DNA of 64,000 nucleotides from Aplysia californica (Eukaryota), in contig NW_004797808.1 of NCBI RefSeq assembly GCF_000002075.1, forward strand, positions 384,102 through 448,101, in the 5' to 3' direction. Positions 1 through 64,000 of the stretch are shown here, one piece after another. A model generated the notes under the pieces. That model was not told the DNA's origin. It ran no database searches and saw nothing but the letters and a program-made list of their open reading frames with translations. The translations under genes were made by a program, and so were the position numbers. The first letter of the stretch is position 1, and every line of letters starts with the position of its first letter.

Positions 1-3000
1 CGGGCCGTGCCACGCTGGGCCAGCAGCAGCAACAAGCCACGCCGCAGCAGATTGTGCCCAAACCCGAGCCAGACCCCAACTACCCCGAGTGGTTGGTGCA
101 TGAGGAGTGGGCTCTCCTTGAGGTGAACTTACACGCACATTCGCAGTAGCAAGCTCAGTTGAGCATTTCTGATTCTCTTTGTCAATATTTTTATTTTGTT
201 ATTTCTGAAGTTTCCATGTCATAGATATGGGTTAAGTGGTGTTGGTGGAGTAACACAGCACACATGTTTTTTAGCCACTGTAACTCTAAAGTGTTGTTGA
301 AGAGTCATGAAAGTATTTTCAGTGGGAAATTAAAGTTGTTAAATAAGTAATTAAAAAAAAATTTTGCCAGATAAAAAAATATTGTAAAAAGACACTTACG
401 ACAAGCTCTTAGGTTTCTTCAATTAACAAACAAGTTGTTGTTATTTTATCTTGTCCGTCTATCTGCTGTGGGTAGGTGGAGGGCGCCACTGGTAGGTCCT
501 ACTTCCTTTCTTTTCCTCTGTTGTCTTCCTTGCACTAAATAGTTGCTGCAGTATGGATATGCTTCTCTTTAACAAGACCTAATTGTCGTACTGCCTCTGA
601 GCTTTGTATGGAAAATATTGTGTTCTTCTCTTCTCTAAGATGCTCCACTAACTATATATAAGGGACATTTGTTGTGTATTAATTAGGTTCTTTGCCATTG
701 CATGCAGAGGTGAGTTATTCCTTCATGGAGACATTTTTTTTGACTGAGATTCTCCATCAAACTGCAGCTGAGGTTTGGTGGGTCAAACGGGTCTGCTTCC
801 CAGGTATCTATATTGTGGGGATGGAGGTGTAGAATTTACAATCGCTGACTGTACGTATGACCACCTTTTGTACACAGGCTGTGCAGCACATCCAGAAGTT
901 GAGCCCTGACCTTCTCATGGACAACCCGGCTCAAATCGTCAACTGGGACTTTGTCTCAGACTTTGTCAGCACTGTGGGGCGCATCTTCCGAGCCGCCAAA
1001 CACTGTCGTTACCAGTACGAGTGTGTTGTGCTCCCCAGAGAAGATGGGAAAATTGTCTACAACATTAAACAGAAGAAGACCCCTAAGAGTATCTATAAGG
1101 TATGTCTTTTTTTTGGTTTTGTTTCCCACACCATTTTTGATACGCAATATGAAACAAGTTTGCGTTGGGAAATTAAAAGTTGTATGAAATGCTGGTCTGC
1201 AAGAAAAGAAAGCGAATTTTGTATGTGTGTTTATCTTTATTGTATCTTCTGCCTATAGATTGTTTTAAACGTAAAATGATTTATTTGCTACTTGAAGGTT
1301 TCTTGGTATGCAAATAATTTAAAAATGAGTATATTGAGTCCATCTATAGGGAACGCGTTCCTTTATTGTTTGAATTGTGTAAAAATGAAAGGAACTGTTT
1401 GTATCCTAGAGTACTTCTTTCATTCTGTTCAGACCAAGAACGTACGTCCACTGCGTACGGAGCAGCTGTACTCGCAGGAAGGGCTGAAGAACTACTCTCA
1501 CCTGTATGACAACCGCTTCACATCCATGATGGAGATTGGCTCCAAGCGACCCGCAGCAATGAGGCAGACCATTGTCAATCCTGCGGCCAAGCCGACGAAG
1601 CACGCCGTTATCCTGGCCGAACACGGCATCAACTACGATAACCCGATGACCCCCAGCCAGCTGGCCACCAAACGTGCCGAGAGGATTGCAGCCGACAAGA
1701 AGAAGCAGCAGCAGCAGCAGCAGCAGCAAGCTCAGCAGCAGGCCCAGGCAGCCTCAGCGGTAGGTGGTGCAAGTGGTTCATTTTATTTGAAAAGACGTGT
1801 GTATATATATAGGTGTGGAGACTGGGAAAAGCTTTTGACATGAGAACATTTTGTCAAATGACATAGTCAGACCTCAGTTTGCCTAAGCTCATGATTTTGT
1901 CTTGGCTTAGCTTTTTCTTTCAAAGAAATAGGTGTTAAGAAATCTTGTTTATGCAAATGGTTGATCTATAGCACAGTGATTTAAAAGACCCTTTGAATCA
2001 TCGTCATTGTCATATTTAAAATGCATCTATTCAAAGAGTTGACAACTTGTTACAGTTGCCGTTGTTATTGTGGAACTGAGATGAAGCTTGCTTTTTCTGT
2101 ATATCAAATGTCTGGTTTTAACTCAGAAGAAATTCAGGTCTTTTTGTGCAAGTGGAATTTGTTTTATGGTGAAGGGCGATGTGCATGATATAATATAATA
2201 TAAAGACTGTTGTGTGAGTGGTCTGATGTCTGTAAATAATGGGGGGGGGGGGGGGGGGGGGGGGTTCCCAAGAGACTGGTAAAGACAGGGGAAAACTGTA
2301 TTTAATGAGGTCTAATATCAGTTCACAATATGTGGAGGATGGTTTGAGTACTGCAAAAGAAAAGTTTTCTTATAAGGACATTAACATAGAGTGAAGGTCT
2401 TGTGTGGTTTGTTTTGTGTCCAAAAGATTTAAATGTGAAAGTGAGTCTAAAATAAGTTTGTAGAAGTGTATACGTTGATGTGCACATGGGTGTTTGTGTG
2501 TGTTCATTTTGGTGGTTCAGTATGTGTGTCACAGTGTGTGCTTGTGCGTGTGTTGTATGCTGTAGCTGCAGTAGTCATCTGTGTTGATGAGACAACTTCC
2601 AACCCACCCCTCAGAATGCCAGCCAGGATGCTGCGGCTGTGGCACAGAGAACTGGCCAGGCTGGTCTGGCTGCTGCTCCTGGGGTCACTCCGACCATCCA
2701 AGGCCAGCCACTCTCCTCCATTGTTTCCGTCACACCCACCACTGTCATTGTAAGAACATTTCCCCCAAGGCACGCTCGCACACACTTCTCTACTCAACTG
2801 ACTGCTTTGTTCCAGGTTTCATGGTCTGAAAATGTACATGAAACAAAGCAAATTTGTTTTAAGGGACTTTCTAAAGAACAAAGTAGTTCAAAAGTGTCTT
2901 GATTTATGTTTCAAAAAATGTATTTGTGCCATGCTCTTTCAATAGATATCTTTCTTTGTCAAAGTCAGCTTGTCATCATTAGCCTTCAGCTCGTTGTTTC

Positions 3001-6000
3001 ATTGAGTCATTTTAATCTAACTTAAAAAAACATGGCCACAGAAGAACAGATTTTTAATTGGATAAAGTGATAGTTCTTTGTAAGCAAAATTTTGACTTTT
3101 GAGATGTTTGGAAAACTTGCTCGCTTTTTTTGGATTAAATTGTCTTTCTTTTTTATTTAATAACTAATGTATATCTTTGGTGAATGCTGTAGAGAAGTGT
3201 GTGGGTGTGTGCCCTAAACATGTATCACACATGTATATAAATAAACATATGCATGCCAGTGGGTATGTGATGGTGAACTGTGGTGTGTGACACTTTTTTC
3301 TGTGGCTTACTGTTCACAGCCAGGTCAGATGTCCAAGGTGGGCCTGAGGACGCTGGGAGCGGCAACAGGGAACATCATAGTGAACACGTCGACGGGTCTG
3401 CAGTCTGGACCGTTTGCTGCCATCAACAAGAGAATGTCACAGGCCGCTGCCTTGCCCTCCACCATTGTGAGTATGCCTCTGTAGCTGCATGAATGTCCTC
3501 TTATTTTATTTTCCTATAGTGTGTAAAAGCAAGTTAAGTGCATGAAAAGTACCACTACAGTGGGAACCATTTATAACAGGCCTGGTAATAACAGGGATCC
3601 GGTAATAACAGGGATTTTTTAAATCCCCGTTTTTTTCCTACTCTTTGTCTCTGTTAAAAGTTATCGACAATAACATGGCCTCATCGGAGCCCAATCGGTT
3701 ATAGCAGGGACAAAGGCTAGTTAACAATGTGTAAAAAGTAAGAGAGATGGAGCAAGCCCACGCAAGCCGTGCCACTGCAAGCACACACAGCGTGTGAAGC
3801 GAGAGAGGGCTGCAGTGTTCTGCAGACCTCGATCTAGCCCGAAACCTAGCAACACGCACACGTAATGTGTCATGCGCAGGCCTGCCGCATGGCCAAATCT
3901 GGTCGTGCGTTATTACTCCCTTGCAACACCTCTAATCTTCGGCACTTCTATGACCATGTTGCAAGTGCCATAAAACTGTTACTAAAACTTATTTTAAAAA
4001 TTTTCCAAGAGGGACTTTTTACAATGTGCAACCACCCCCCACCTCCCCACCTAGAGTGTGCTCACATTACAGTTATACTTTTAATTGAGTTTTTCAAAGG
4101 AAATGTGTTATTTGCTGCTGTAGTTCACTTTGCAGGATAATGATGATAAAATCTACACTTCAGTCTTGATGAAGTTGATGATTAATATAATTTGTTCTGA
4201 ATTCTGCTCATGTGAAAATTCAAGTAAGTATCTGAGACTAAAGTGCTGAAATTCTATTAAACAAAGTAAATAATCCCCTTCAATTTTTGCATTTTTGCAT
4301 TCTAAATAGTGAATTCCGTTTTCAATCTTAAAACATTTTTTAAAAAATTGCTTCACATGTTTGTGGCCTTGTGAGTTTACATAGGCAGGTGTAGAAGACA
4401 AGGAGAAAAATCATATTTTTTGTAGGGTGCAATTTTAGTTGAAATTACACAAGGATCAAGTTAGGATTCAGTGTCATCAACATCAAGTTTTAATCTTATT
4501 TTTTTATACTGTTTTGAGATGAATATCGACACTTGATTTGTTTCAGTTCGAAGATGCGAATTGAAACATTGTGAACTGAATTTTGGTAAACCAATTGTTG
4601 TACACTGAATTTGGTTACTTTAGTGCAACCATTCTTCCTTTTAGATTTGACAGTAATGTGAGCCTCATGTATTTTTACTAATTGATGTAAGACAGAAATC
4701 CTAAGATACATTACACTATTTCCAAAATTTATATATAAGTCATTCTCAACCACAGGATTGTGATGATAAACATTCACACTTCAGTCTTTATGAACTTGCT
4801 GATTCGTACGTTTGTTACTGAATCCTGTTTGCGAAAAGAGTTCTAGATCTAAGCTTTTTCAACTCCGGTATGGCGTTATAGGGTAGGTGTTTTTACAGCT
4901 CTATTGACACGGTAATGCACATGTAAGCAAGCAACAGCAACTAAATTGTCTATGCCTCTGCTAACTTGAGTTGATTTTTGTTTGAATTGAAATATAATGT
5001 TTAGCTGTCAGATATTGAAGGATTGTTAGTTTATCTTTCTTTAAGCGTAGCCACATGTTCATGAATGATGTAAAAACCCAAACAAAACTTGAAAGCTTGG
5101 AGAGTTTTATAAGTTTTCTTCATTTGTAGCAAAAGTGAGAAATGGGTTGGTGGGTGTTGTGGTGTGGTATGTACCTATCTTTTTGAGGATCATGATGATA
5201 GATATTCACACTTCAGTCTTTATGAATGTGCTGATTCAAATAGTTTGCCACTGAATCCTGACTAATGACTTGTCTGTCTTCCACACAGCGCTATAGACAC
5301 AGTAATGTGCATGTTAGCAACAGCAACAAAATTGTCTATGTCTCTGCTAACTTGGGTTGATTTTTGTTTGAATTGAAGTTGTTATCGATCCAGATTTGAA
5401 TTGAAGTATAATGTTTAGCTGTCAGACATCGAAGGATTGTTGGTGGGTGTTGTAGAGTGGTATGTATGTATCTTTTTACTTTCACTCTTTAAACATGTAT
5501 TTGTAATCTGTTCCCTGTAAAATGTCTTAATGCGAGTGGTTAAACGGCACCTCTGGTAGGCCCTACTTCTTTACTCACCAACTTTTATTTCTGTCAGTCA
5601 TTCTTCCTTTTTCCTAGAGCTAAATGATATTGTCTTTGTGCTTCTTCCTAAGCAAACTATAGTCATGGCTGTTAGTGTACAACTCAACAACACCATACAC
5701 CATGCACATGTGGGGAAAATGGGGTGGAAAAGTGGATTCTCAAACGAACTCAACAGCAGGATTGTGATGATAAACATTCACACTTCAGTCTTTATGAACT
5801 TACTGATTCGTACGTTTGTTACTGAATCCTGTTTGTGATAAGAGATCTAAGGTTTTGTTTCTGTCTGTCTTTCTTGCTTTTTTTTGTGCTTCCCCCTGAG
5901 CAAACCATATCCACGACTGTTAGTGTACAACTCGACAACACCGTGCACGTGGGGGGGGGATTCTCAAATGAACTCAACAGCAGGATCATGATGATAAATA

Positions 6001-9000: not shown

Positions 9001-12000
9001 GTTACGACAAGATCATTATGGCCTGTCTTTTTAATATTTTTAAGCCTGACATTTGTTTTTTTGATTTGTAGTTGAAGGAAAATGTAATGCCCCAAGCAAA
9101 TTTTTAATAGAGCAAAACTTGAGTGTAAACTTTGTTGAACTTTTATATTTAATATATCACAAAAAATGTAGAATCACATTGTGAAGCTCAACTGTTCAGA
9201 GATGTTCATGAATTTGTTGGGGTTTTATTTGCTCAGTCCATCCTGCAAGGAGCTAAGCAAGGTCTAATACGTACAACCATCCCCAAGATGACGGACGAGC
9301 AACTTCAGGCTCTGAGAATGAGGACCCAGATCCAGACCCAGACTGGAAAGCAGGTGAGCTAGGGAGACATATGCTGTGTCATGACCATGCACACTTTTGT
9401 CAGTGGTGGCTGTGTGTGCTAGCTGCGATGGAGTATTCATGTTCAGTGGGTTTTTGTGGGGGACTGAAATAGCAAATTTGAACAAAAGGTCAACCAAAGG
9501 ACTGATGGTCAAGTAATGTGAACCTTATTTGGTTTTTGTGGTGGTTGTTGGTAGGGGTGAGGGGGGGTTAATGCCTGTACTAATGCACTTTTAAAATCTT
9601 AGTAAGAATTTATAATTTTTTATGCAACTGATTTTTGGCGTAGTATTAAGATCAATATATTTCCTCCCTTATTCTTTTTGTTTTTAAATCTGAAGTTGTG
9701 TGTGACCTATGGTTTCTCATGACTGACATTTGCTGATTAAAGAATAAGAAACCATATTTTCAAATCTTGTTCCACTCCTGTTTATATTATAAAATTTTAG
9801 TTTAAAATCTTGGTTGATTTAAAGTCTAATTGGATACGTACTCAGGTAGAAATTGGACAAGATTAGTTTTTCCATTAAATGTTCTCACATGTTTGACATA
9901 AACCCTCCGAGCGTTGCTAACAAGTAACCTGTGGTGTCAGGAGAAATTTTATGGTGTCAATATATTTTGGTGGAAAATGCTTGAGAATTGGTAAATCAAG
10001 CACATACAAACCATAAACTTACACAGTTTCAAAAATTACGATCTTCATAGGAAGTAGACTAGTGAAGAAGTCAAAATATTTACAGATAAATAAAACGGGA
10101 TAAACAAAAATGAAATAGTAATTACATGAAATGTGAGATTGCCTCACACCTTACATTGCTTCACATCTTACGAATGAAAGTTTAGTCAAGCTGATGTGTT
10201 GTCTTCACAGATTCAGACAGCCCAGATCATCCAAGGCCAGGTGACTCCTGTTGGTCAGTCTGCAGCCTCCACCTCTCAGTCCCCGGTGGCCCTGGTCAAG
10301 TCTGTGTCGGCCTCCCCGGCGGTGACAGTGCCGGTCAATATCCCAGTGTCCAGCATCAGCGTGGGTCAGCAGAGGACTGTACTAGGTAGGTTTGCCCTGG
10401 TTGGCCCTGTGATGTAGTAGTTCTACAGGGACTTTTGACAACAAGACCTCTTTACTTGTCGGCTGCTTGCCACGAACTGATTAGCAAGATTTTTATGGAG
10501 TCTTTACTGGCTTCCGACATTGGCCAGGGTTTTTACTGTAGGGAAGGCCAAACAATGCATTGCCACGTAAGAATGAATAGAACAAATACCCATATGCACA
10601 TGTATATGGACACACACACGCGCGCACCAACATATCAATCTCTTTACTTTCTCTGACAGGTTTGTCAAGGGCACATGACTGTCTAACAGAACTTGGATAA
10701 GAATTTAACCCCTTTGCTTTTTCCCCCCCAAGACTGCCTCAGGCCTGATTTTACCAACAAACAAACCAACATGTAACTGAAGGCAGTCTTTGACTATATA
10801 CATAAATAGTTTTGACCAAATCGGTTTCAGAAATAAAACTAGAACCGTATTAATTTGACTATGTAATAGTAGCAAAATCCTTTTATGTAATCCTGTTGAA
10901 TGTCAAAGCACTTTCATCATTCAGTAGGTCAAAATAAGCAAGTGTGTTACTGTAGTGGGGTTTGTTTTTTTAAACTTTAAACGAACATTGCATGGATGTT
11001 TAACAACTTGTACTTAAAAATATACAAAAAATAAGGAGAAAAAGGGTTGGAAATCTTGTTCCCGGTCAGCCAGTGATATTGTAGCCACATGTGCAGTTGA
11101 GGTGAATGTCCTGTCCTCCTCAGCATCCCGGGCTACCACAGTGAGCCAGATCCAACAGCAGCAACGCATGCAGCTCCTACACCAACAGAGGAAAGGAGTC
11201 GGTCAGCAGAAAGTGGCAGGTTGGTGCTGGGGCTTTGGCAATGTTGTAGAGTGTTACTCTGACTAGGCAATTTTTTTAATGGTTTCTGAAAGTGTTAAAT
11301 TGATCATTGATTGGGGGGAGGCGAGCGCTGAGTAGCTAACATTTTTTTTTTTTTTAAACCAATCTAGAAATGATTTTTTTTTTTGGAGCAACCTCATTTC
11401 TCATTTTCCAAAGTTTCGTGTAGTAAAAAATATGGTTATCCTTTGAGTTTTGTGTGTTCGACTTGTCTGTGCTCAACTATATCTTGATGGGTTTTAAAAA
11501 TATTTTTAAAAAAAAATTTATTTCAGGTCTGAGTGCTGGCAAAGCCAACCAGTTCCCTCAGCTGCTGATCCAGCAGAACAGTGTGAGCAAGCAGTTTGTG
11601 CACCAGTTCCTCAACAAGAACCCGGGCACCATCCAGCAGATCATCACCCACAGCTCCCAGCCCACCATCATCACACAGGTCTCACAGGCTGGGGGGCAGC
11701 CCATCACGCAGATGGTGGCAAAGGTCCGATTTTTTTGTCAGCCTCCTTTAGATGATCAAATAATGTTGATAGCGCTGTTGAACAGTTACACTTACTTACT
11801 TCCCTACTTGTGTACTCTCTCTCTCTCTCTCTCCCTTTTCCGTCAAGGTCACAAGAAGGAGAGCAGGAGATTACCCGTGGGTGGTTGGTGGGTGCTCTGG
11901 TGGCTTGCTCCTTCTTTCCTATCTAACATCTATCGTCTTTATCTTCCCTTCTTCTTTTGTGTTTGTTTCTATCTTGTAACACTTTTTATCTTCGGCACTT

Positions 12001-15000
12001 TGTTGTGTTGTAAGTGCCGTAAAACTTAAGAAAACAGCAGATTACACTGGCTAACTGAATACTTGTTGGTCTCTTTGTAGAGGATATTTTTTCAAGAGCT
12101 TTACAGTGAATGTTTTAGAATACTTGGTTGTATTTCTGGTCAAATGAAAAATTATATTATAGTTATCAGGGGTTAGCATTGTTGGATTGTTTTGAGCTGT
12201 GTTTTCAGGATTTCAAAGAATTTTTACGGCTGACATTCAAGAGTGATTATATTGAAATGTTTTGTATTGAATGGATTTTGTTTGTGTTGCATCAATGATG
12301 TCCAGCTCAAGCATCTTTTTTTAATGGAGGAACAGATCTACACTATACTTCAATGAACATAATTTTGTTTACCCGTCCTGCTCTCACTGTTCCAGGTTTC
12401 CCTCACCTCTGGTAACCAGACCATAACCCCGGGCACCCCCATCACGGTGACCCACGTGAGCACGACGTCTGCGGGCGGGGTCGGGCTGAGTCTGACGCCA
12501 CAAGGGGCGGTGAAGACAGCCACCATCACCTCCCTGGACGCTGGCAGTATGGTCGGGGCCGTGGCGGGCATCCAGGTGCACTCGGTGCAGCCCGGGCAGA
12601 AGACGGTGCCGGGCCTTACTCAGAGCCTGGTCACTGCACAGACTGTTCAGGTATGTGTTGGAGTTCTCAGCCTAAATGTACAGTACTTGGGAGAGCTCCT
12701 AAGTTTGAAACACTGGTAGCTATGGTGAAATGGCTAGGTTCTCTGCCATGCCAGCAAAAAGTTTACACAGGAAAAGGGCACAACCGTTTCATTTCCTTGA
12801 TATTTTAGTGATTACTGTTACCTCTGGGGGGTGGGGGTCACTTCATTGATTAAGTGAGGAAATATGATTGTTTTATAAAAGAATTCCCCAATCACGGTTA
12901 CACCTACAAATGTGTTGAAATGAAGGGGGGGGGGGGGGGGTCGCCAAAAAGACTGACTCCTGTACTAATGTGCACTGTCAGTAACAGATAGGAAGAAAAT
13001 GTTGGTGGTAGGGAAGAGTGCTCGGCCATGCAACCACTCCGGACCACCTGTCTTCTGTTGCAACTCCGTAAATGCTTGGATGACGATAGACATTCCGAGA
13101 GAGTTTTCTGTAGTGATTGGTTAAACAACTACGTTGTAGTTCTTTGGGTGCAACTGATGACTTGACTAAATCATTCATCCTTTAGGCCTTTCTAGTGTTT
13201 TTCTGCAGTCATGCATGTTGCACATCATAGGCCTATATAAGCTATACAGTCACCCAAATCCAAGTGAGAAACCTGTCAAACAGGCATGTTGAGTGACCAA
13301 TCAAAATAAAGTGACTGTGCTCATGCATGTCTAGATTATACAGAAAAAAACCCGTCAATTGACAAAAGCATTCATTTGTGGAGACCGTGCTTTGGCATGG
13401 CAGAAACTATTGTAATTCCTGAGCTTTTTGATTGTTGAAAGTTACTTTAGAATTTTTGTTACTCCATTACTTCTGCTTTACTCAAAGAAAGTTGTGGAAT
13501 GTAGGTAAGGTGAGTAGAATAAAGTAAGGCCATCATATGACCTTATGCAGTTGCGAGCGCCGTTAAACATGTACCCAAAAAAAATCTTTAAAAAGGAATG
13601 ACGTAATGAAAAAATATAAAGTAAGGACTTGTGTAAAAGTAATGTAAAAGGTGACACTTATTGAATTACCCAATTACTGTCGACACAGGTTCGACTGTAG
13701 TATGCCCCTGTAATTTGTCTTTGTGATTGAGGAAAAAAACCATGAAACAATTATTATTGTTTCTCCAGGTGCAGCAGGCATCTAGCGGCTCAGGGCCACA
13801 AGCCACGCAGTTCTTACAGGTGACCCCAGCTACAGTGCAGAGTCAAGGGTCGAGCAGTGGACAGCCCCAGCAAGCCACGGTGACGGTCCCCGCTGGGCTG
13901 GTGGCCGCCTCAGCTCTGAGAGCCACCCCAACGCCACCCACGGCCAACCCTCGCTCAGTCACGCCCACACAGATCAGCCTGGTGTCCGCGCCTGTTCCTG
14001 CCGCCAGCATTGCTTCAGTGCAGGTGAGGAGCCCCAGGAGTATGTTGGAATTGTTTTGTTTTCCTGTGTTTTGATGTAAGACATGCAGTGAAACACTGGC
14101 CTCTATCTATGGTGAAATGACTAGGTTCTTTGCAATGCTAACAAGAAATGTAAGTTGACTCTAGCTTGGGTGGAGAAGATAATGAGATGATAATTTTCTT
14201 GCTTAAAATGGGATGACCCTCAAAGGTAGTTTAGAAGTAGGCCATCTGAAAAATTATTTAGATTGTCGGTAAGGCATATATATATCTTACCAACCAAGCA
14301 TTAAGATGAAATCCCCCACAAGGTTGAGAGGGGAAGATTTAAAGAACTTGGGAGAAGGACTTAAATTTGGACCTGAAACTCACTCCCTCTAAATGCACGC
14401 TCCGATCCACGAAACACCGACAGGTAAAGCTTGACAAAGGGAAATTTTCACTACAACCTGCACAACCTGCTTAAGACAAGCCTAGAAAACCAGATATTTG
14501 GTGAGACTGCCCCTCACACCGAACAAAGAGAGTGATGGACAGCGTTTTCACACCCAACTTTCCACAGACAGTACATAGGTCTAGGACTGGTCTGTGAAAT
14601 GTTGAGGGGTTGGGGGACTGAAATGTTTTTTGATTGGTCACTGGAAATGCATCTTTGAGTGAAGGGTTTCTGACTGGTGTTTGGGTGACTGCATGTAATG
14701 TTTAGTTAGACCTTGGTTTATGATGCACAACACGTGTGAATGCTGTAAAACATAAGACAGACCTCTATAGGATTAAAGATTAGTCAAGTATGCCTAATCA
14801 GCTGCACTCGAAGAACTTATAACGTCCCTGTTCAACGAATCACAAGAGAAATGTTTCTTTTGAATGTAGAAACTTATGATTCCGATGTTGTCCTTGAATT
14901 TATGGTCGGGGATGGTCGCTTGGAAAGCCATGTTGCTGGCTGTCATCTCTATGACTATCACCAACAGTTTCCTCTTAGGCTATCTGTTCCCAACATTTTA

Positions 15001-17209: not shown

Positions 17210-17640
17210 CGAGAACTGTTGCCTTTCTTTTCTCATCCTTACTATCATCATTTTTCCTGTATTTCTATTGTGTTTTTCACGCTCGTGTGAATTGCTATTT
17301 CAGGCTTGGGTGGTTGGCGGGTGCTCTGGTATGGTTTGCTCTTTCTTTCCTGTCAAACAGCTATCGTCCTTATCTCTCCTCATTTTTTGTGTTTGTTACT
17401 CTCTTGTAACACCTTCGGCACTTGTATGACCTTATTGTGTTCCGTAAAACTCTTACTAAAACTAAAACTATTTCCCGGGTGCCTTGATTGTCAAAGCAGA
17501 CTTTGTGCTGCTGAAGCAAGAGAGGTGAGCAGAGTAAGCCTGATTTCCCGTTTGGACTTCTCTGTTGACATCCACCCCTTGGCGCTCATATGACCTTACG
17601 CAGTTGCGAGCGCTGTAATACCTTACAAAAACTAAACTAT
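17210..17640 (+). mobile_element. Retroposon family B, interrupted by a family A copy (17302-17467)
   Basis: Colinear with the uninterrupted inverted copy at 58600-58857; inner element flanked by TSD CTATTTC (17295-17301 / 17468-17474). Confidence 0.8.
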
Positions 17641-19534: not shown

Positions 19535-22392
19535 CAGTGGAATCATGTTATAACGAGAGGGAGCAAAATGTCCGTTATAGCAGGATTCTCGCTATAAGGG
19601 ATCCTGTAATAAATCCAAGGGAAACTGTAAAGTAGGCCTTATCTATGAGTTTGGTGTTCTGTTTATTTCCTTTTGCTATCCCCCCTTATGATGATTTTGT
19701 TTCAACATGACCTCTAGGTCTTACTTGATCAAAAATTCTTTTCGAAATCAAAATAAATTCCATCACAAAAACCCTTCAAAACAATATTGACTGCTCACTT
19801 TATGTTGACGACTTCCTGATTTGCTATAAATCCAAATCCAAAATGGATCACATTGAACGTCAGCTTCAGCTTCAACTCCATAAACTGGAAACTTGGGCAA
19901 ACGGGCACGGGTTCAAATTTTCCACATTAAAAACAAACTGTGTGCATTTTTGTCTGTCGCACAAGTGTGTGCGACAACCAGATTTATATTTGTTTGGAGA
20001 GAAAATTCCTGTTAAAAAACAAGCTCGTTTCCTGGGCGTAATCTTCGACAATAAACTTTCTTTCCTACCACACTTGAAAGACCTAAAGACGAGGTGTCAG
20101 AGTGCTCTCAACGCCTTAAAAGTAATATCTAATCCTGAATGGGGAGGAGATACTGAAATACTTCTTCAGCTTTACCGTTCCCTTGTCCGCTCCAGGCTGG
20201 ACTATGCCAGTCCTGTTTACAGATCAGCCAGAAAGTCTTACCTTAAAATTTTAGACCCTGTTCAGAACCAAGGCCTTCGCCTTGCCCTAGGCGCTTTCCG
20301 TACTTCACCTGTAGAAAGTTTACAGGCAGAAGCGCATGAACCATCTTTGGAACTTAGAAGGAAAAAACTCTCTTTGCAGTACGCTTTGAAACTTAGCTCA
20401 GTACCCCAAAACCCAGCCCACAAATGTGTCTTTGGCCTTCCCGAAGATCTAAAAACCCTATCCTCCTTAGGAAATAAAGTAAGCGAGTAAGCCCTTTCGG
20501 AATAAGAATCCAGAACGATCTCAAAGACATTGATTTTTCTGAAGACATAATCGAGCCCTTTGCCATGTCCAGCATACCTCCATGGCATTTAACCAAACCA
20601 AACATAGATACTAGTCTTGAAAAACACAACAAAAAGTCCACAGACAAAACTACATACTTAAACTCATACAAACAGCTGATAAATAGATACCTTGAAGCAG
20701 AGAAACTCTTTACAGACGGATCCATAAATGACTCCTCAGTAGGAGCTGCTGCCCTTGCATCGCCACACAGCTTAAGCTTAAGGAAACTCCATCCAGAAGC
20801 TTCAGTCTACACTGCTGAGGCTACAGCTCTTGAAATGGCCCTAAATATTATAGATCAATCAACCAAGTCTACCTTCCTAATCCTTTCAGACTCTCTCTCT
20901 TGTCTGAAATCCTTAGAGCGCTCTGACACCTCCGACAACAGAATTTTGAAACTTATCATTAAACTGCATTTTCTACATCAGTCTGGAAAAACTATTACAA
21001 TAGCTTGGCTTCCAAGCCATGTAGGCATTGATGGCAACGAAGCCGTTGACCAATTTGCCAAAGAATCTCTAAAACTACATGAAAACAAAAATAGTAAAAT
21101 CCCCTTCTCTGACATGAAACCGAAAGTAAAAGAACACATCACATCCTCCTGGTCCCAAAGTTGGAATCAACAAATACACAACAAACTCCATTACATTCAA
21201 CCGAAACTTACACCCAGGAAACCATTTTCTCTACCACGAAGAGAAAAAGTAATTTTTACCCGACTAAAAATAGGACACACGCACGTCACGCACAAACATT
21301 TTCTCGAGGGAGAGGAAGCTCCTTTTTGCGTGGCGTGCAACACAAATTTCACAGTTCGGCACATCCTAATGGAATGTGTTGACTTTAATTATGTCCGTGA
21401 TAAATATTTTAAATGTAAAGATATTAAGACCCTTTTTAACATCATAGAACCTAGAAGAATTTTAAGTTTTATAAAAGAAATTGGACTGTTTAATAAAATG
21501 TGAAAATATATAGTTGTCGTTGTCGGTGTATATATACATACACTGAGATTTGTATTGTATATACAAATGTAAATAAGCCTTTTCCATATTTACAAATTTT
21601 TTTTATAAATGTTTGTTCGTCTTTTTAGCATAATAGAAATAGTGTGATCGTTTGCGGTTGCGAGCTCCGAAAGACTCTTTATTAAAACACGTCTGATTCT
21701 GTAGCGGTGAAACCTGATGGCGCTTAAATGACCAAAATTGTGTCGATAGTGCCGTAAAACATCTACCCAATCAATCAATCAATCAAAAATCGAATCAGGT
21801 TTCTTTCTCTAGCGCTAGATCTCGTGATGTGGACTGACAGCTCGGCGTTGGCGATCAGAAAGAAAGGGCCTTAGGCTAACTCCCCCCGCTGTGTTTTCCC
21901 CCACCCCACCCCACCCTGTGGTGCATTCTGTCTGATTGCGCACGTCACACATTCGCTCCGCCCATCACATTGATGTGACCTCTCCATCCACGCATTGGAG
22001 AAGTGAGAGGCATGGAAGGCCTTGATAATCTAAACTAGGCTTACGCTGGCCTATCACGCGATGCGTTCTGCTTGTCTGCGCATGCCACACACCCCCTACT
22101 CAGTTGCTCCGGCCTTCATTGTTGACACACATGGGCTCTCCTATTCTTTGTTTCGCAAGATCACCAACAAGTTTCTCTAGTGGCGAGGGTTTGCATGATG
22201 TATAACTGGCATATGCACTGTGCACAGCAGCAGCAATATTCCGCTATAACCGACTCGCATGTTTGTCTGATAGCGCTATGGCAGTATTTTATTTACAAAG
22301 GTAAAGAGGAGAAAAAAAACCGGGTTTTTAGAATAGTGTCTTTATAACAGACTTTTCGTTTTTTCCGGACTCGTTATAAGTGGACTCCACTG
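19535..22392. mobile_element. Second Tc1/mariner-pogo-type MITE nested in the first
   Basis: TIRs CAGTGGAATCATGTTATAACGAG / CTCGTTATAAGTGGACTCCACTG, TA flanks. Confidence 0.75.
19737..21781 (+). mobile_element. 5'-truncated non-LTR retrotransposon, I group (I/Nimb/Ingi-like): RT C-terminus, RNase H, CCHC
   Basis: YVDD at 19801-19812; ORF 19843-20490 (RT thumb: FLGVIFD, LYRSLVRSRLDY); one frameshift ~20470-20490; ORF 20565-21503 with RNase H (FTDGS, YTAEA, LSDS, WLPSHVGIDGNEAVD) and CxxC..H....C; 3' stem-loop, (TCAA)n tail; TSD ATCAAAAAT (19728-19736 / 21782-21790). Confidence 0.93.
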
Positions 22393-24204: not shown

Positions 24205-24368
24205 CTTACCCCCCAGCTAGAGCTCGCTCGATCTCTCCCGCTGTACCTGAGTTCGGGCCTTTCCGGGTCTACAGGAACCTTGACACAGACTTACAGCCTA
24301 GCTTCTGATCTAGTACTAGTATAAATTTTCAATTTGAATTATCGGTAACGTAAAGTTAATCTGGGTTT

Positions 24369-24737
24369 TAGTTTTAGTAAAACTTTTACGGCACCTGCAA
24401 CACTATAACTATAAGGTCATATAAGAGCCGAAGATTAGATGAGTTTCAAGAGAGTTTAGTTCAGTAAAGAGTTTTACGGCACTTGCAACACAATAAGGTC
24501 ATATAAGTGCCGAAGATTAGAGGTGTTACAAGAGAGTAACAACAAACGTAAAAAAGGAGGAGAGATAAGGACGATAGATGTTTAAGAGGAAAGAAGGAGC
24601 AAACCACACCAGAGCACCCGCCAACCACCCACGTTTCAAGAGAGTAATAAAAAAAACAACAACAAAAAAACGAGGAGAGATCAGGACCATAGGGGTTTTA
24701 TAGGAAAGAAGGAGCAAACCACACCAGGGCACCCACC
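24369..24737 (-). mobile_element. Family A copy containing a second family A copy (24456-24632)
   Basis: Outer TSD ATCTGGGTTT; inner TSD GTTTCAAGAGAGT (24443-24455 / 24633-24645). Confidence 0.85.
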
Positions 24738-25289
24738 ATCTGGGTTTGCATTTGTACACACACACACGCAGAGAAAGAGACTCAAAACTCTCATGTACAT
24801 GTAAATCACCCCCCACTTTTCAAACACATATCACACAGCAGAATCATTTCTCTTGACTTGACGTTGGGCAGGCGGGGCTATTTAAGAGTGGAAACCCTGT
24901 TAAACTAACTTTAACTTCCAGCCCTGCTTTTCCACTAACTTCACATTGGCCCCAAGGGTGGGACTATAAGGAGGTTTGACTGCACACAGCAGACAAAAAT
25001 GCTTACAATACAGGGATGCACATTCCAACACATCTGGGCATGTTAAGGAACTCGAATGTCAACCCCAACTCAAAGAGTACTGGCCTGCTTGGGTGGGTAC
25101 AGCCCATCTCCCATTCCAACAGATGAATGAAATTAACACTTTTGTCCCACAGGGATGAATCAAGCTGCCTTCTGTCTCTTCATTATTGCTGTCCCACTTT
25201 CTAGTGGAGAACTTGGTAAACAACACACCCCTATATTACATTTAGTAACATTTCATAAACAAACAAAAACTACAAAATTGTATTCAAAG

Positions 25290-25574: not shown

Positions 25575-28500
25575 TCAGTGGTGGCCTCCATGCAGAGCTT
25601 CACTGCCTTCTTCATAGCCCTCCGGCAACGCGTTGTAATAGCCATTGTGGAACAGGGAGTGGTTGCCATCTGACCATGGGAAGGGCTGAAAAAGACAAAG
25701 TGTCACCAAATTTTATTTTATGAACAAAAAACAAAACCATTCAGATTGGGACTATAATAGAGAGCATGTAAGTTCTTTTTTAAAGTTTTAGTAGAGGTTT
25801 TACTGCACTCGCAACTGCATAAGGTCATATGAGCGCCAGAAGATTAGAGGTGTTACAAGGGAGTAACAAACATAAAAAAGAACGAGGGGAGAAAAGGACA
25901 ATTGATATTTGATTGGAGAGAAGAAGCAAACCACACCAGAGCACCTGCCAATCGCCCACTGTAAGTTCTTACACGACAATTTTTAAAAAGTTTCATTCTG
26001 CAAAACCCACCACCTTCGACTGAGGACGGAGGGTGGGAAAATCTGACAAGACCTAGCTAGACAAAAGCGCAGGGTTTTGTACAATGCTCTTCAGCAGCAG
26101 TAGCCTAGAACTTGTTTTCAGTAATGTCGGACAAAAGAAGCAATAAAACAATCAACTTGTCGTAGGCCTACTGGTTTCAGTAAATAAATCCGAACTTTCT
26201 GCTCATTCTGGCAGTGGAAAATCAGCAGTGTTGCAGACCTGCTATAGTCATGCAAACAGCGTACTAAATTTTCTGATTGTTCATCACGTCACATGTAGGC
26301 TACTCGTATACAACGGAACTAATAAAATGCACAATATAGCAAGAAAACAAAATCCATCCAGCAATCACTTGTAAGGGACCCATCTAAGAAAATGACCTCC
26401 TTTCCCATATAGTTGAAATAATCATTACACTAAACTACACAAAAACGAGTGTCAAATATTCTGCATGGCGGCACCCAGTCTTTCCTGAACAGCTGTCATA
26501 ATCTAGCTCCAGAAACTAATAAATGTTCAAAATAAATATGACAAATTTCTGTTCCATATGAAAGGCACATCAATCTCTTGAGAATTTTGGCGTCAATCTT
26601 TTACCTCTTAGTCAGTTTTTTAAATAAAAAGTGGCAGCCATGAAATGTGTGAAACGCTCGCAAATTGGCTGCAACCCCATGTTGGACAGACAATAAAGCA
26701 GTAGCTTACCCGCAGTACCAAACATCCACATACAAATGAACATAGTACAATCACAGTAATGCAGATTTGGAGCCTAATTTTTCTCCAAGCCTTTGAGACC
26801 ATTGCAAATGAGTGTTTTATTGCCCCAAACATGTTCCTTTGTATTTTAGGCAAAAACACTGAGTCCTATCCCAACCAGAGGCACACCGCCATCTGTAGCG
26901 AGCGGTACGGTCCTATATTATACTGTGTACAAACTGCTCCATGTTGCGAGGTCTTAACATTTTTGGAGTTCTAAAGAAGGGAGGAGGCAAAATTTTCCAA
27001 AGCTGATGACATTATCCCATCTTTCTATTGGTGCCTTTAAAAAAAAAGTATTTTACAAAGAGTGAAACCCTGTTATACCGCCTACACCGGGACCAGCATT
27101 TAGCTGGCGGTACAACCAGGTTTTCATGTCCCCTTTTAAATACATGGACCACCGCTTGACCAAAGTCAAGGTGACTTGTTAACCAATCACTACATGAATT
27201 AATAATGAGCTATAAAAATCCCTTTGGACTGTCACTTGAGAGTGAGTCCTTACTAAATAAAACATAAAAGCCCCACGGGCATTCCCCTGTTTGTAAGCTA
27301 TTGAGTTGATATATAGGTCGCCCTTTAAAGTTTCTTCAGACAACTTAAAATTTAATTCCACTTTTTAAAAATACAGTCGAACCTGAGTAAGACGGCCACC
27401 CATTGTCAAGGAGAAAAGAGGCCGTTTAAGGCAGGACTGATCAAGATGAAGAAAACAAACCATTACTTTCTGAGGTCCCAACCAAAAGTAGCCGCATTGT
27501 TGTTGTTGATATTGTTTTTGTTTTCGCTGGGGGGGGGGGGTCTTTTGTTGCTGCTTTTGTGCAAGGGTGACAATAAAACGAAATGGACTGATCTCGTGCT
27601 ATGGTAAAACAAACACACGGGTAGCCACCACTCGGAGAATGAACGACGCTTCCGTCACAAGTTCATGTTTACGTCCATTGTTACCTTTGTTACAGACTGG
27701 GTAAACAGTGACCACTCATCTCACTTACGATTTGTGTATGAGTTCTGGGCGGGGCTTATGGGTTTTGAGGGATCGCATGCTTACCTCACCAGCAGCTGAA
27801 AATTTGTTACCTATAGTTCAACTGTGGGAGGGGCCTACGCAACATGAATCGGTTGGATGGACTACCTAACAACGCCAGGGGCCAATGCATATATTTATGA
27901 CAAAACGTAATGGCGTCACTAAGGAGGCCGTCTAAGACAGGTGTTATTGTTTGGTGTGATAGGGGTTGTGTGTTAAAGTATGGTGGCCGCGGCCGCCTTG
28001 GACAGGTGCCCGTTTTACACAATTAAATTATATAGAAAAAAAAGGAAAGGGGGGAAATGGAAAGTGGCTGTTTGTACAGGTGGCCGTCAGGGCAGGTTCA
28101 ACTGTATTGACCAATAAAAATAAAAGCATTTTCATAACCAGCTTGTCAAATTTATTCGAATTCACGTGGGGAGCAAAATTTAATGCTTAATTAAGTAATA
28201 TTTTATTTCAATTGTACTCTTCTATGTAACACATTGTATTGCATTCACTTGTGGTACATTACATCACTGTAGCTCTATCTATAGGCCTATTGTTTGAAAT
28301 CTACAAGACAAGGCTGGGGAGGAGAGATGAGTTGGGAGGGAGCAAATCGGTGAAAAGTATTTTGATCTAGACCTAGACCACAGAGACATCTGTGAGAGAT
28401 TGTCAAGCAACCACCCATTGGATGTGCCATGCGCCTTGTGTAGCCTAACGTGTACTGTGTACTTCCAGCGGCCAGTTCATGGCAGTACAGCAGAGTAAAT

Positions 28501-48400: not shown

Positions 48401-51400
48401 TGGTTTGGTTTGCCTTTCTCAACATAATATGGTGAAATCACATAATTTCCCTGACTCCACAGGCTACTTGTTAGCTACCCTTGGAGGGTTAATTGTAGCA
48501 TTGTGGTTGGTTGGTGGGTGCTCTGGTGTGGTCTGCTCCTTCTTTTCTACTGAACATCTATCATCCTTATCTCTTCTCTTTCTTCTTTATGATTTGTGAC
48601 TCTCCTGTAACACTCTAATCTTCAGAACTTATGTAACCTTAATATGTTGCATGTGCTGTAAAACTCTCTCTGTGGGTGGTTGGCGGGTGCTCTGGTGTGA
48701 TTTGCTCTTTCTTTCCTTTCAAACATCTATTGTCCTTATCTCTCTTTCTTCTTTATGATTGTTTCTCTGCTGTAACAGGTCTAATCTTCAGCACTTATAT
48801 GACTTTATTGTGTTGCAAGTGCTGTAAAACTCTTTCTATATAACTTAACTTATTGTAGCATGTTTCATAATGTAAACTCCACTGTGTTTGCTGACAGACC
48901 TACTACGGTGTGTCGACAGTGTCCGAACTTCCGTGAGACGAACCCGTCTGGGGGAACGGGTATCCTGGCTGGCGTCCAGCAAGGTTGGTGACATGAACGT
49001 TTGAATTTCTCTCTCTCTCTCTTCTGGCGCTGTGGCTTCATAAACGGTCAGCGATGCCGACAGCACGCAGGAACTCAACACTCGCCCGGGGGTCCTCAAA
49101 AAGTGCTGAAAGTGGGTTACTGAAATGTCCCAGCAGACGACGTTTGAATTTGGAACGGAGTGGACAGAAACTTGATTTTTTTTTACAAAAGTAGACAAAT
49201 TAGGTTTTTAGTAAAAATATGGGCGGTTTAATAACCCTCTCAACAATATTAGGTTATTAAATTAAGAAGTGGGACCTCCTAATTTAATGTTCGTCTCCGA
49301 TAGGACTGAAAATTAAGTTTCTGTTCTGTATTTAAGGACAATTGAAAAACGAAACAAGTAAGATTGGTTTTGTTGTGTATAGATCTGGAATTCGTTCTCA
49401 CTTGTGTTGACTGAGGAGAGTGTTACCATTCCCGTAAAACTATGAAAAAATTTCCCACGAGAACACTAAAGTCTTATCTTATCTCATCTCATCTCATCTC
49501 ATCTCACCTATCTTATCTTACCGTACCTTATCTTGTCTTGTCTTGTCTTGTTTTATCTTATATTATCTTGTCTATATTTCATTTGTTTCAGTTTTCACGA
49601 CAATCAAGAATGCTGTCACAGGAGGTGGTGGGGATGGTGCCGGCCCCTCTACGGCCACCGACACTGGCCCGCCCGCTGCAGGTGAACGTCAGCTTTTCTT
49701 AGCTCTCTGCTTTCTTTCATCGTTCCTATCTAAGATGGACGTTGATTTTATGAGGTCCTGTCTGTTTCATAACAGTACAGTGTTGAAATGAGCGTTAAAC
49801 TCATACGGTTACCGGTACCATTTACTATAGACTCTTACTTATACTGAAATCCGTGAGACCACCGGATTTTCATTGGTTCAAGCATGTTTAGAGAGATTGC
49901 TCAAATAGTGAAGCAAATAGTAGGGGATTCTATTTTATTTAGGTAAATGTCTGTGTTCGGATTAACAATGCTGAGTTTAGCTCATTCGCTACGCCGGGCC
50001 GTGGGGGGCGGCGCGGCTAAGGTGCCGTCAGTACGCTAAGCCGCCCCCGGCGGCGCGAGAACCGATCTTCAATTTGAGCTTGGTTTCTATTCCAATCCAC
50101 ATATCCATGTTAAAATAAAGGTCATAATATAATGTTGACTTCCGGGTCAAGCATTTCCACTGAAAATCGGAAATTTAGATTCAATTTTGAAACGCGATTT
50201 CGTAGTTTATTCGACTTTGTTTTATCGTGATGCCAAAATTGTAGCCCGGACACCAGTTTTTGTAATTTTACGCAACAAAATCTATCATTATTTTGCCCAC
50301 TAAAGAAGTGTAGGACTCTTTTTTATAATATTGATACGATTGGACTCATATTGCCAATGCACTGTTATTGAGAAATCAATATTTTTGAGTGCTAGATCTA
50401 GGTCTAGATCTAAATAGTCAAAATATTTTTTTCTCCCCAAAATCACTACTTTTTGATGAAATTACACAAAAAATGCCACTCAAGACATGTATAGGTGTAT
50501 TCCAAATGCAATTCTCAATAATTCCATATAAGATACGAGCGGGTTTTTTTCTGTTTGTGATCGTTTTTCAAGATTATAAATTTTTTTTTTTTTTTTCAAT
50601 ATCGGATGTTATGTTCAAAATGTACAAATATTATGGAATGTAGGTAAATAAATGCAAACTTTTCAATATTTTCCAGTTCTATATTCATTTATGGTTATTT
50701 TGATGTATCATTTGACTAGGTGCAAACATATTTTTTGAGTTTCACCAAAGATTATAAATTTTTTATTTTCAAATTTTATCCGCATCCAATCAAAACTGTG
50801 TTGCATAATCGTCTCTTACAGGAACCAAAGTTGAAAAATACATAAATAAACATTACAGGTGTATTCTACAAACCATACTGAAAATATTGGTATATAATAC
50901 GTTGATATTTATTTGAATTTGTGGCCCCAAAGATCTTTTAACTGCCCACTAGTCATCATCTCTTTCGCTCTCCTGAGTTAAACCCACTCTACTGTATATT
51001 CGATATAGACTATACATTTGAAAAGTGGGAGGTTGGGGGGTGTTGTGGTTTGGTGTGCTTCTTCTTTCCTATTGAACATCTATTGTCCTTATGTATCCCC
51101 CTTCTTTTATTTGTATCTTACTATCTAGTAACACTTCTAATCTTGGACAATTTTATGACCTGTTTGTGTTGCTGGTGCTGTAAAACTTTTTCTAAATCTA
51201 AACATTTGGAAGTAAGTAAGTTAGTAAGTATAAACATTTGGAAAATATGTTGGAAAGGACATTTTTCTGTGTGACAGGTTCCTCGTCTGAGGCAGACCCC
51301 GATGCTAAAGTGATGCCGGACGCTCCCGCGTTCACGTGTGCCTTGAACCAAAACCACGTCCTGTGCCTGTGCTGTATGCTACCCATGCCGGACAGGAGGG

Positions 51401-63100: not shown

Positions 63101-64000
63101 GTTTGGGCTGACTTTTTCCAAGACACCAATTTGTACGTCTCTGTCTAAGTCTTTCGATACCTGTTCTTGCCAGTGAATGGGTACTAGAGCAGGTTTGTGG
63201 ACTGCCACCGGCTTTGCATCAGGGTTGACATGTAGCTGGAGTGGCTCGCATTTCATCATGGGAGGGGTTGGTGCTCACAGATGTTGAATGCTGTGCCGCC
63301 ATAGTAGTCCACGAGCCTCTGTTTCAGTGCTGGTATGTTGTCATCTGTGGCTGACAGTCCAGATGGCAGACTTGTAGGTATGGGAGGTGGATCTTGGCCA
63401 CGCGTAGGGCATGAGCATGTTGATGGTGCAGGGGTTTCCATGGAGGCTGTGAAATCTTGTGGCCAGGAAGCTGGGACACTTGAGAAGTTGGCAGGAATGG
63501 CTCCGAGTGTGACGAGGGCTTCCCTGCACGAGAAGGCCTTTTCCATTTTTGCCGAGACGTACATCGTGATTTTGGTTGATCTGGTGGTGCCAGAAGTGTC
63601 TGATGTGCTGATAGTTGCGATTATACCGCCTTCGACCCCCCAGATCTTCCTTGATGGCACCACACATTGTCAGTTTGACGGGTATTAAGTCAGTGTGGCT
63701 GATACCCATGGCGAGAGCTGATTGTAGTGGAATGATAGAGCTCTGACAGCCAGAGTCAGCGACCATGGGTAATGTGGGATAGTGCGTCTGATGACTTGGC
63801 ACAAGATGCGGGGAAAAGTGAAGTGAGACCAAGGGAACAGGGAGGCAAAACAGTTGCCAATAGCTTGAGCAAGACGCTGAATCAACTTGGAAGACTGGTC
63901 ATTTGGTTTCATCAAGATACTAGGATCTGCAAAACATTCTGTGATATTTATTGTTGGCTGTTGTAGTGTCTTGGTCTCTACCTGTGCTATTCTTTGCTGC
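60190..64000 (-). mobile_element. Decayed Ty3/Gypsy LTR retrotransposon pol (PR-RT-RH-IN), extending beyond the window
   Basis: Protease VADSGCQSS; RT TDAWNGYHS and IKCVDD (~62735-62755); RNase H YAPIEGEALAV/TDHKPL; integrase HAAHQG, CSDYF, SDGGPQF, AEIAVKTVKR; Gypsy domain order; multiple frameshifts. Confidence 0.93.

What the first reader, a model, noticed from the sequence alone, without database searches (positions are those of the whole stretch)
11877..12034. ~180-bp retroposon (family A) with a fixed 5' end and no Pol III promoter
Seen: nine near-full copies (11877, 17302, two at 24369-24737, 25778, two at 48502-48851, 51025, 57953). Nearly all start at GTGGGTGGTTGG(C/T)GGGTGCTCTGGTGTGGTTTGCTCC, end in a stem-loop plus a short A-rich tail (often (ACTAAA)n), and have 6-13-bp variable TSDs, the signature of target-primed reverse transcription. 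No tRNA/5S/7SL head or B box is visible. Known: truncated LINE copies have random 5' ends and SINEs carry Pol III boxes. Inference: a constant start implies a bipartite LINE derivative (LINE 5' end fused to LINE 3' end, like RIME/NARTc) with an internal Pol II promoter, or a processed or self-cleaved 5' end.
Basis: partly seen in the sequence, partly recalled or inferred. Interest (0 to 1): 0.7.

Follow-up and report, generated by a model that had tools for sequence, protein, structure and literature searches.

The report
Headless snail retroposon with LINE tail
A 180-letter jumping element repeated tens of thousands of times in this mollusc genome nearly always starts at the same letter and ends in a LINE's tail, yet its front end matches neither a tRNA nor the front of that LINE, so it likely carries a small promoter of its own, an unusual but not unheard-of way for such elements to spread.

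Summary
Family A is a ~180-bp retroposon: 8,506 exact matches to its first 34 bases genome-wide (reversed control 0), about 46,000-102,000 copies. In 600 kb sampled blind and anchored on the body, 27 of 38 copies reach positions 1-5, 20 exactly G1; TSDs in 52 of 101 full copies, control 7; upstream flanks are unrelated. No tRNA, 5S, 7SL or A/B box. The last ~60 bp come from an older subfamily of an I-group LINE of this genome (57/62 and 52/61 identical). The RIME/NARTc reading is not supported: that LINE lineage starts with a different head, and the 32-bp head matches none of seven LINE families tested. The CT-rich body is shared with a 390-bp sister family that also has a fixed start and no tRNA head. 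Most likely an internal, probably Pol II, promoter; untested. Closest known: mollusc LP-SINEs. An earlier scan note found the shared tail on other DNA of this genome. Repbase/Dfam could not be searched.

The parts
11877..11906 (+). Head (consensus 1-32), G-rich, origin not found; defines the fixed 5' end
11907..11993 (+). CT-rich body with T-run and small hairpin (consensus 33-121); homologous to positions 148-227 of sister family C
   Evidence: score 72-75, shuffle maximum 35-40
11994..12035 (+). Tail: stem-loop plus A-rich end, from the 3' end of the older LINE-B subfamily; this copy lacks 9 nt of the stem
11868..11874 (+). 5' copy of the target-site duplication (3' copy at 12039-12045)
17306..17467 (+). 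Copy (tail type 1) inserted into a family C element, whose 3' part follows at 17468-17632
24456..24632 (-). Copy inserted into the body of an older copy, 13-bp TSD
24367..24740 (-). Outer copy, 5'-truncated by about 10 nt and split by the inner copy
25781..25959 (-). Copy (tail type 2), 11-bp TSD
48503..48838 (+). Two head-to-tail copies (48503-48667, 48672-48838)
51025..51203 (+). Older, diverged copy
57956..58135 (-). Copy (tail type 2)
3910..3990 (+). 5'-truncated copy (consensus 91-178)
58605..58992 (-). Full copy of sister family C (390 bp; fixed C-run start, shared body, type-2 tail)
19711..21787 (+). 5'-truncated I-group LINE (LINE-A; RT-RNase H end, 3' UTR, related tail); ORF2 51% identical to LINE-B in the last third

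Best explanation
Family A is a ~180-bp non-coding retroposon in tens of thousands of copies that ends in the 3' stem-loop of an I-group LINE of the same genome and is likely copied by that LINE's enzyme from an RNA that likely begins at G1 under a promoter inside its own head, probably read by RNA polymerase II. Shown: three modules (32-bp head of unknown origin, CT-rich body shared with sister family C, ~60-bp tail matching the older LINE-B subfamily), TSDs, a fixed start beside ordinary random truncations, two tail types on one head. Inferred: target-primed reverse transcription in trans by LINE-B; the fixed start is the RNA's own 5' end, reached often because the RNA is short; the promoter travels with the element; the modules were joined by template switching, and the younger subfamily A2 took the tail that family C also carries.
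For: Tail identity to old LINE-B 3' end 57/62 (A2) and 52/61 (A1), against 33/43 and 24/28 for LINE-A; those old copies lead upstream into ORF2. TSDs 52 of 101, control 7. Truncated copies with their own 12-bp TSDs at positions 24 and 32 show that RT can stop early, so the pile-up at G1 marks the template end. No 5' flank is carried along: 39 of 52 TSDs abut G1. Head kept through a tail swap and through two ages (A1 13.2% median divergence, n=44; A2 5.9%, n=24; copies not picked by likeness) and both states of position 36 occur with both tails (49/8/22/16), which fits several source copies. T-run in the body (68 of 101 with >=5 T) would stop Pol III (general knowledge). Family C, with the same body, also has a fixed start and no tRNA head (29 of 30 top hits are whole ~390-bp units, the 30th is cut by N). 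Precedent: LP-SINEs (PMC4758252, section 10 read).
Against: No promoter activity was measured. Poly(A) RNA reads give no sign of a free 180-nt RNA: reads lie in both directions, 78-82% run on into unlike flanks, and no place where many molecules begin was reported (three runs, one study). No extra G before the start, as copying of a cap might leave (G at -1 in 7 of 101, background 18%). No LINE donor of the head was found. Mixed haplotypes can also come from recombination or recurrent C/T change in a pyrimidine tract, so they do not exclude a master gene. 32 bp is short for a promoter, though the body may contribute.
Confidence: 0.55

Rival explanations
1. One or a few master loci make the RNA from an upstream, external promoter (snRNA-type or U6-type, or a host gene's), and the dispersed copies are dead on arrival.
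For: G1 start; the first 59 nt can fold back on a 7-bp terminal stem; no promoter signature shown inside the element.
Against: That fold is weak (z -1.4 and -0.5); two tails and all four position-36/tail combinations; T-run would cut a Pol III transcript before the tail.
Confidence: 0.2
2. The 5' end is made by cutting longer read-through transcripts at G1, by a ribozyme or a host nuclease.
For: Copies are common inside poly(A) transcripts, about 1,000-1,400 reads per million; some LINE clades have 5' ribozymes (PMC5786205, part 3 read).
Against: No Rfam ribozyme hit; an HDV-like descriptor found 0 of 101 copies and neither consensus (descriptor recalled, no positive control); no T-arm-like hairpin in the predicted fold.
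Confidence: 0.14
3. A tRNA- or 5S-derived SINE whose head has decayed beyond recognition but is still read by Pol III.
For: A tRNA-headed Nin-like SINE with the same tail exists in this genome.
Against: Head versus 20 host tRNA genes (7 amino-acid types; one entered in reverse by slip): score 16, 196 of 200 shuffles as high, while the Nin-like SINE heads score 50-52 with shuffle maximum 33-34; no boxes; internal T-run.
Confidence: 0.07
4. A strict bipartite deletion product of its own partner LINE, like RIME or NARTc.
For: The 3' half fits; a faint CT-tract likeness to LINE-A/B 5' UTRs (p about 0.07-0.11).
Against: Young, intermediate and old LINE-B and LINE-A copies start with another head; in 1.85 Mb, 167 of 171 head matches are followed by the element body or tail, and the other 4 are two cut at a locus end, one split by a LINE fragment, one with a diverged body.
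Confidence: 0.04

Closest known systems
LP-SINEs of gastropods and bivalves (Lsa_2, Hdi/Hmi_LP, Oco/Oed_LP, Sgl_LP, pectinoid MESC; Matetovici et al. 2016, PMC4758252; read: passages, section 10, part 1 of the supplementary PDF and passages from it; figure 3 not seen)
   Same: Short, TSD-flanked, no tRNA at the 5' end, proposed Pol II promoter in the head, ACTAAA near the end, a CT-rich stretch behind the head in the scallop family.
   Different: Their head is a ~70-bp piece of the Nimb-17_LMi / I-3_DR 5' end (C-run start); family A's 32-bp head does not look like it (compared by eye with supplementary figure S2) and matches no LINE tested here. Family C, with its C-run start, looks closer to them.
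Bipartite non-autonomous LINEs RIME, NARTc, Vingi-N, Bov-A (Kojima 2018, PMC5786205; read: parts 1, 3, 4 of 5)
   Same: No ORF, LINE 3' end, fixed 5' end, probable Pol II.
   Different: They keep the 5' end of their own LINE; family A does not. That paper lists only RTE, Ingi, Vingi and R2 as known sources, not I/Nimb, and notes that a short piece from an extinct LINE would be untraceable.
Mollusc SINEs with Nimb-type tails (Meta, V families; Martelossi et al. 2024, PMC11481361; read: passages, section 13)
   Same: LINE-like 3' tail of 35-61 bp at 72-95% identity, shared across unrelated bodies; tandem multimers.
   Different: Those carry tRNA heads with Pol III boxes; family A has none.

Membership tests
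SINE (Pol III type) | Head from tRNA, 5S or 7SL RNA | tested here: not met
   positive control passes
SINE (Pol III type) | Internal A and B boxes | tested here: not met
   5/7, 6/9, 5/7 informative bases, matched by 72-97% of shuffles (box patterns recalled)
SINE (Pol III type) | TSDs and LINE-derived tail | tested here: met
SINE (Pol III type) | Transcribed by Pol III | not testable with these tools
   T-run in 68 of 101 copies argues against
Bipartite non-autonomous LINE (RIME/NARTc type) | 3' end equals partner LINE 3' end | tested here: met
   57/62 and 52/61
Bipartite non-autonomous LINE (RIME/NARTc type) | 5' end equals partner LINE 5' end | tested here: not met
LP-SINE | Head homologous to the first ~70 bp of Nimb-17_LMi / I-3_DR | tested here: not met
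   by eye against the scallop copies in supplementary figure S2; no alignment run, figure 3 consensuses not seen
LP-SINE | Variable TSDs, short terminal repeats with ACTAAA-type hexamer | tested here: met
LP-SINE | Head acts as (Pol II) promoter | not testable with these tools
   untested in the source paper as well
HDV-like 5' ribozyme | Nested double pseudoknot starting at the 5' end | tested here: inconclusive
   no Rfam hit; recalled descriptor 0 of 101 but without a positive control
Partner LINE in the Nimb clade | RT phylogeny places it in Nimb | not tested
   ORF1 plus APE-RT-RNase H ORF2 fits the I group; 'Nimb' rests on recall and on the papers read

The most novel reading that the evidence does not exclude
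The 32-bp head (with the CT-rich body) is a portable Pol II mini-promoter that came from neither a small RNA nor a LINE, and it has driven a SINE-sized retroposon to some 70,000 copies on an I-group LINE's machinery; with family C it would mark a group of promoter-bearing retroposons in which heads are swapped onto a shared body.
Probability: 0.25. Interest if true: 0.65.

Novelty: new variant of a known kind. Interest (0 to 1): 0.42.

Why it matters
SINE-sized retroposons are defined by Pol III heads, and the known exceptions borrow a LINE's 5' end. This family, about 1-2% of its genome by the copy estimate, fits neither, and at 180 bp with a 32-bp unique head it makes the open LP-SINE question (which polymerase, which promoter) cheap to test with one reporter. 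If the head is a promoter, tens of thousands of copies could start transcripts inside host genes. If a master gene or an extinct LINE explains it, it is an ordinary lineage-specific repeat.

Tried and rejected
Head as 5' end of LINE-A, LINE-B or five other RT families: no match above shuffles; the 5' boundary of one of the five (L103 type) was not fixed, and several families seen were not fetched at their 5' ends. Body as LINE-A/B 5'-UTR CT tract: p 0.07-0.11, not accepted; four weak hits at p<=0.03 among 120 comparisons (one for the body, three for family C pieces) were treated as chance. True start at an A before G1: rejected, the -1 base is usually the last TSD base. Head fused to a different LINE tail at L161: a LINE fragment inserted in a copy. 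Consensus structure over 101 copies: RNAalifold gave none; neutral copies cannot show covariation. G-quadruplex stop: would remove the head, not fix its 5' edge (reasoning). Metagenome contigs: 0 matches to 28 head bases. Sequencing runs: no RNA holder listed; raw poly(A) reads showed no start pile-up, which such libraries may not show; no empty-site allele seen at 11877, but no contig spans the site. The first tRNA positive control missed the SINE head and was redone. A genome-wide list of tail copies with foreign upstream DNA was not obtained, so LINE families outside the fetched 1.85 Mb remain unexamined. Literature searches: 'LP-SINE' 1 paper, 'CALSINE' only a mention of CALSINE3 as a CORE-SINE, first 24 bases 0 papers, searches gave no description of this family; Repbase and Dfam are not searchable here and may hold it. 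PMC5729268 (passages) was not relevant.
Full report
Setting. The window lies in G000 (927 Mb). An exon at 833-1255 matches human EP400 (E 2e-11), and the copy at 11877 sits, by reading of the flanking splice sites, in sense in an intron of what is probably that gene. Earlier scan notes call the animal a sea hare; I did not check this, but a Nin-like SINE in the genome fits a mollusc (the Nin label is by eye against rows seen).

The observation. All nine copies are there, plus a truncated tenth. The first 34 bases occur 8,506 times exactly, the reversed control never. Sixty blind 10-kb stretches held 47 hits starting at or before position 12 (tandem partial heads included), giving about 73,000 copies, bootstrap 46,000-102,000. 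Anchored on the body alone, 27 of 38 usable copies reach positions 1-5 and 20 start at G1; 11 start at 7-75. Two truncated copies have their own 12-bp TSDs, so ordinary truncation occurs and the peak at G1 marks the end of the template. Among 101 full-length copies, 52 have a TSD (control 7), mostly 11-13 bp, 39 abutting G1; upstream flanks share no family sequence. Poly(A) reads agree: 1,200-1,762 loose ends per run before G1 have a consensus agreement of only 0.37-0.38.

No Pol III head. Rfam and ARAGORN give nothing on the element. Box matches are at chance. Against 20 host tRNA genes the head scores 16, with 196 of 200 shuffles as high, while the heads of two Nin-like SINE copies score 50-52 against a shuffle maximum of 33-34. 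A run of five or more T lies in the body of 68 of 101 copies, which would end most Pol III transcripts before the tail (general knowledge).

The tail. Two I-group LINEs with ORF1 and an APE-RT-RNase H ORF2 were found (LINE-A, which has a fragment in the window at 19.7-21.8 kb, and LINE-B). Clustering the flanks of 447 usable tail hits (of 460) in fetched DNA gave families A and C, a Nin-like SINE, LINE-A, LINE-B and 61 singletons. One singleton led to an older LINE-B subfamily whose 3' end leads back into ORF2. Its majority 3' end matches subfamily A2 at 57 of 62 and A1 at 52 of 61 positions, better than young LINE-B (54/60, 46/60) or LINE-A (33/43, 24/28). The tail hairpin is the most stable part of the fold (z -2.6 and -3.7). 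A1 is older (13.2% median divergence, n=44), A2 younger (5.9%, n=24), and A2 has the same tail end as family C.

The head. LINE-A and LINE-B both start ACCCCCAGTGGG. So do 18 of 20 LINE-B copies picked by ORF1, the other two being truncated, and a full-length old copy with the matching tail begins with a worn form of the same head (L292). The family A head scored at chance against seven LINE families on both strands, and head plus body fell short against a profile of 38 LINE-A/B 5' ends (21 and 20 of 300 shuffles as high). In 1.85 Mb, 167 of 171 head matches run on into the element; the four others are explained by locus ends, an insertion and a diverged body. The element is therefore not a RIME-like deletion product of its partner. 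The search is not exhaustive: several RT families seen were not examined at their 5' ends, and a short piece of an extinct LINE would be untraceable (PMC5786205, part 4).

The body. Positions 32-115 align with the middle of family C (score 72-75, shuffle maximum 35-40), including a small hairpin whose stem differs by a paired change. Family C is 390 bp, starts at a fixed C-run as the two LINEs and the scallop LP-type SINEs do, has TSD-like flanks by eye and no tRNA likeness, and 29 of its 30 top hits are whole units with no ORF behind. Its first 170 bases match no LINE 5' end tested.

Mechanism. Shown: modular build, LINE-B tail, TSDs, fixed start. Inferred: copying in trans by LINE-B. For the fixed start I favour an internal promoter read by Pol II (0.55), because the head survived a tail swap and two waves, haplotypes are mixed, no flank is carried along, and the T-run disfavours Pol III. 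Against it, there is no direct evidence: reads lie in both directions, 78-82% run into unlike flanks, no start pile-up was reported, and no extra G marks a copied cap. A master gene with an outside promoter (0.2) and RNA cleavage (0.14) remain. The head contains short words resembling Sp/KLF, E2F and RUNX sites; these are recalled motifs, untested, and likely by chance in G-rich DNA.

Comparison and verdict. It works like the LP-SINEs of PMC4758252 but fails their defining head by eye; it fails the Pol III SINE and RIME/NARTc tests. My searches found no description, but so abundant a repeat may well be in Repbase or Dfam, which I could not search, and figure 3 of the LP-SINE paper was not visible. 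New variant of a known kind; interest 0.42.

Noticed in passing
window 58605-58992 (-); 17468-17632 (+); L231-L260: Family C: a second headless retroposon, 390 bp, fixed C-run start, same body and type-2 tail as family A; 8 hits over 150 nt in the 600-kb blind sample.
   Followed up: partly
L091:2760-2800 (+); L098:2974-3015 (+): LINE-A and LINE-B, about 51% alike in late ORF2, share their first ~45 bases; the C-run/G-run and an 8-bp stem could form an H-type pseudoknot at the 5' end (by eye, untested).
   Followed up: no
window ~21645-21700 (+); L211-L230: The LINE-A 3' UTR holds a worn internal copy of the older LINE-B-type tail upstream of its present tail, as if a new end had been added.
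   Followed up: partly
L022:1581 and 1600: About 950-1,270 reads per run join a poly(T) stretch to the body on the + strand, i.e. antisense copies sit next to poly(A) tails or prime oligo-dT; one join looks like a single abundant mRNA.
   Followed up: no
L024:806-1044, L181, L178, L205; window 48503-48838: Head-to-tail arrays of a 3'-truncated copy followed directly by a full copy are frequent; similar SINE multimers are described in PMC11481361.
   Followed up: partly
window 833-1255 (+) and exons to at least 14 kb: Host gene resembles EP400/domino.
   Followed up: partly
window 61174-63900 (-): Broken LTR-retrotransposon pol remains (RNase H-like and integrase domains).
   Followed up: no
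window 48845-49207 (-): 3' fragment of the RNase H-bearing LINE family seen in L032-L058, next to the tandem pair (by eye).
   Followed up: no
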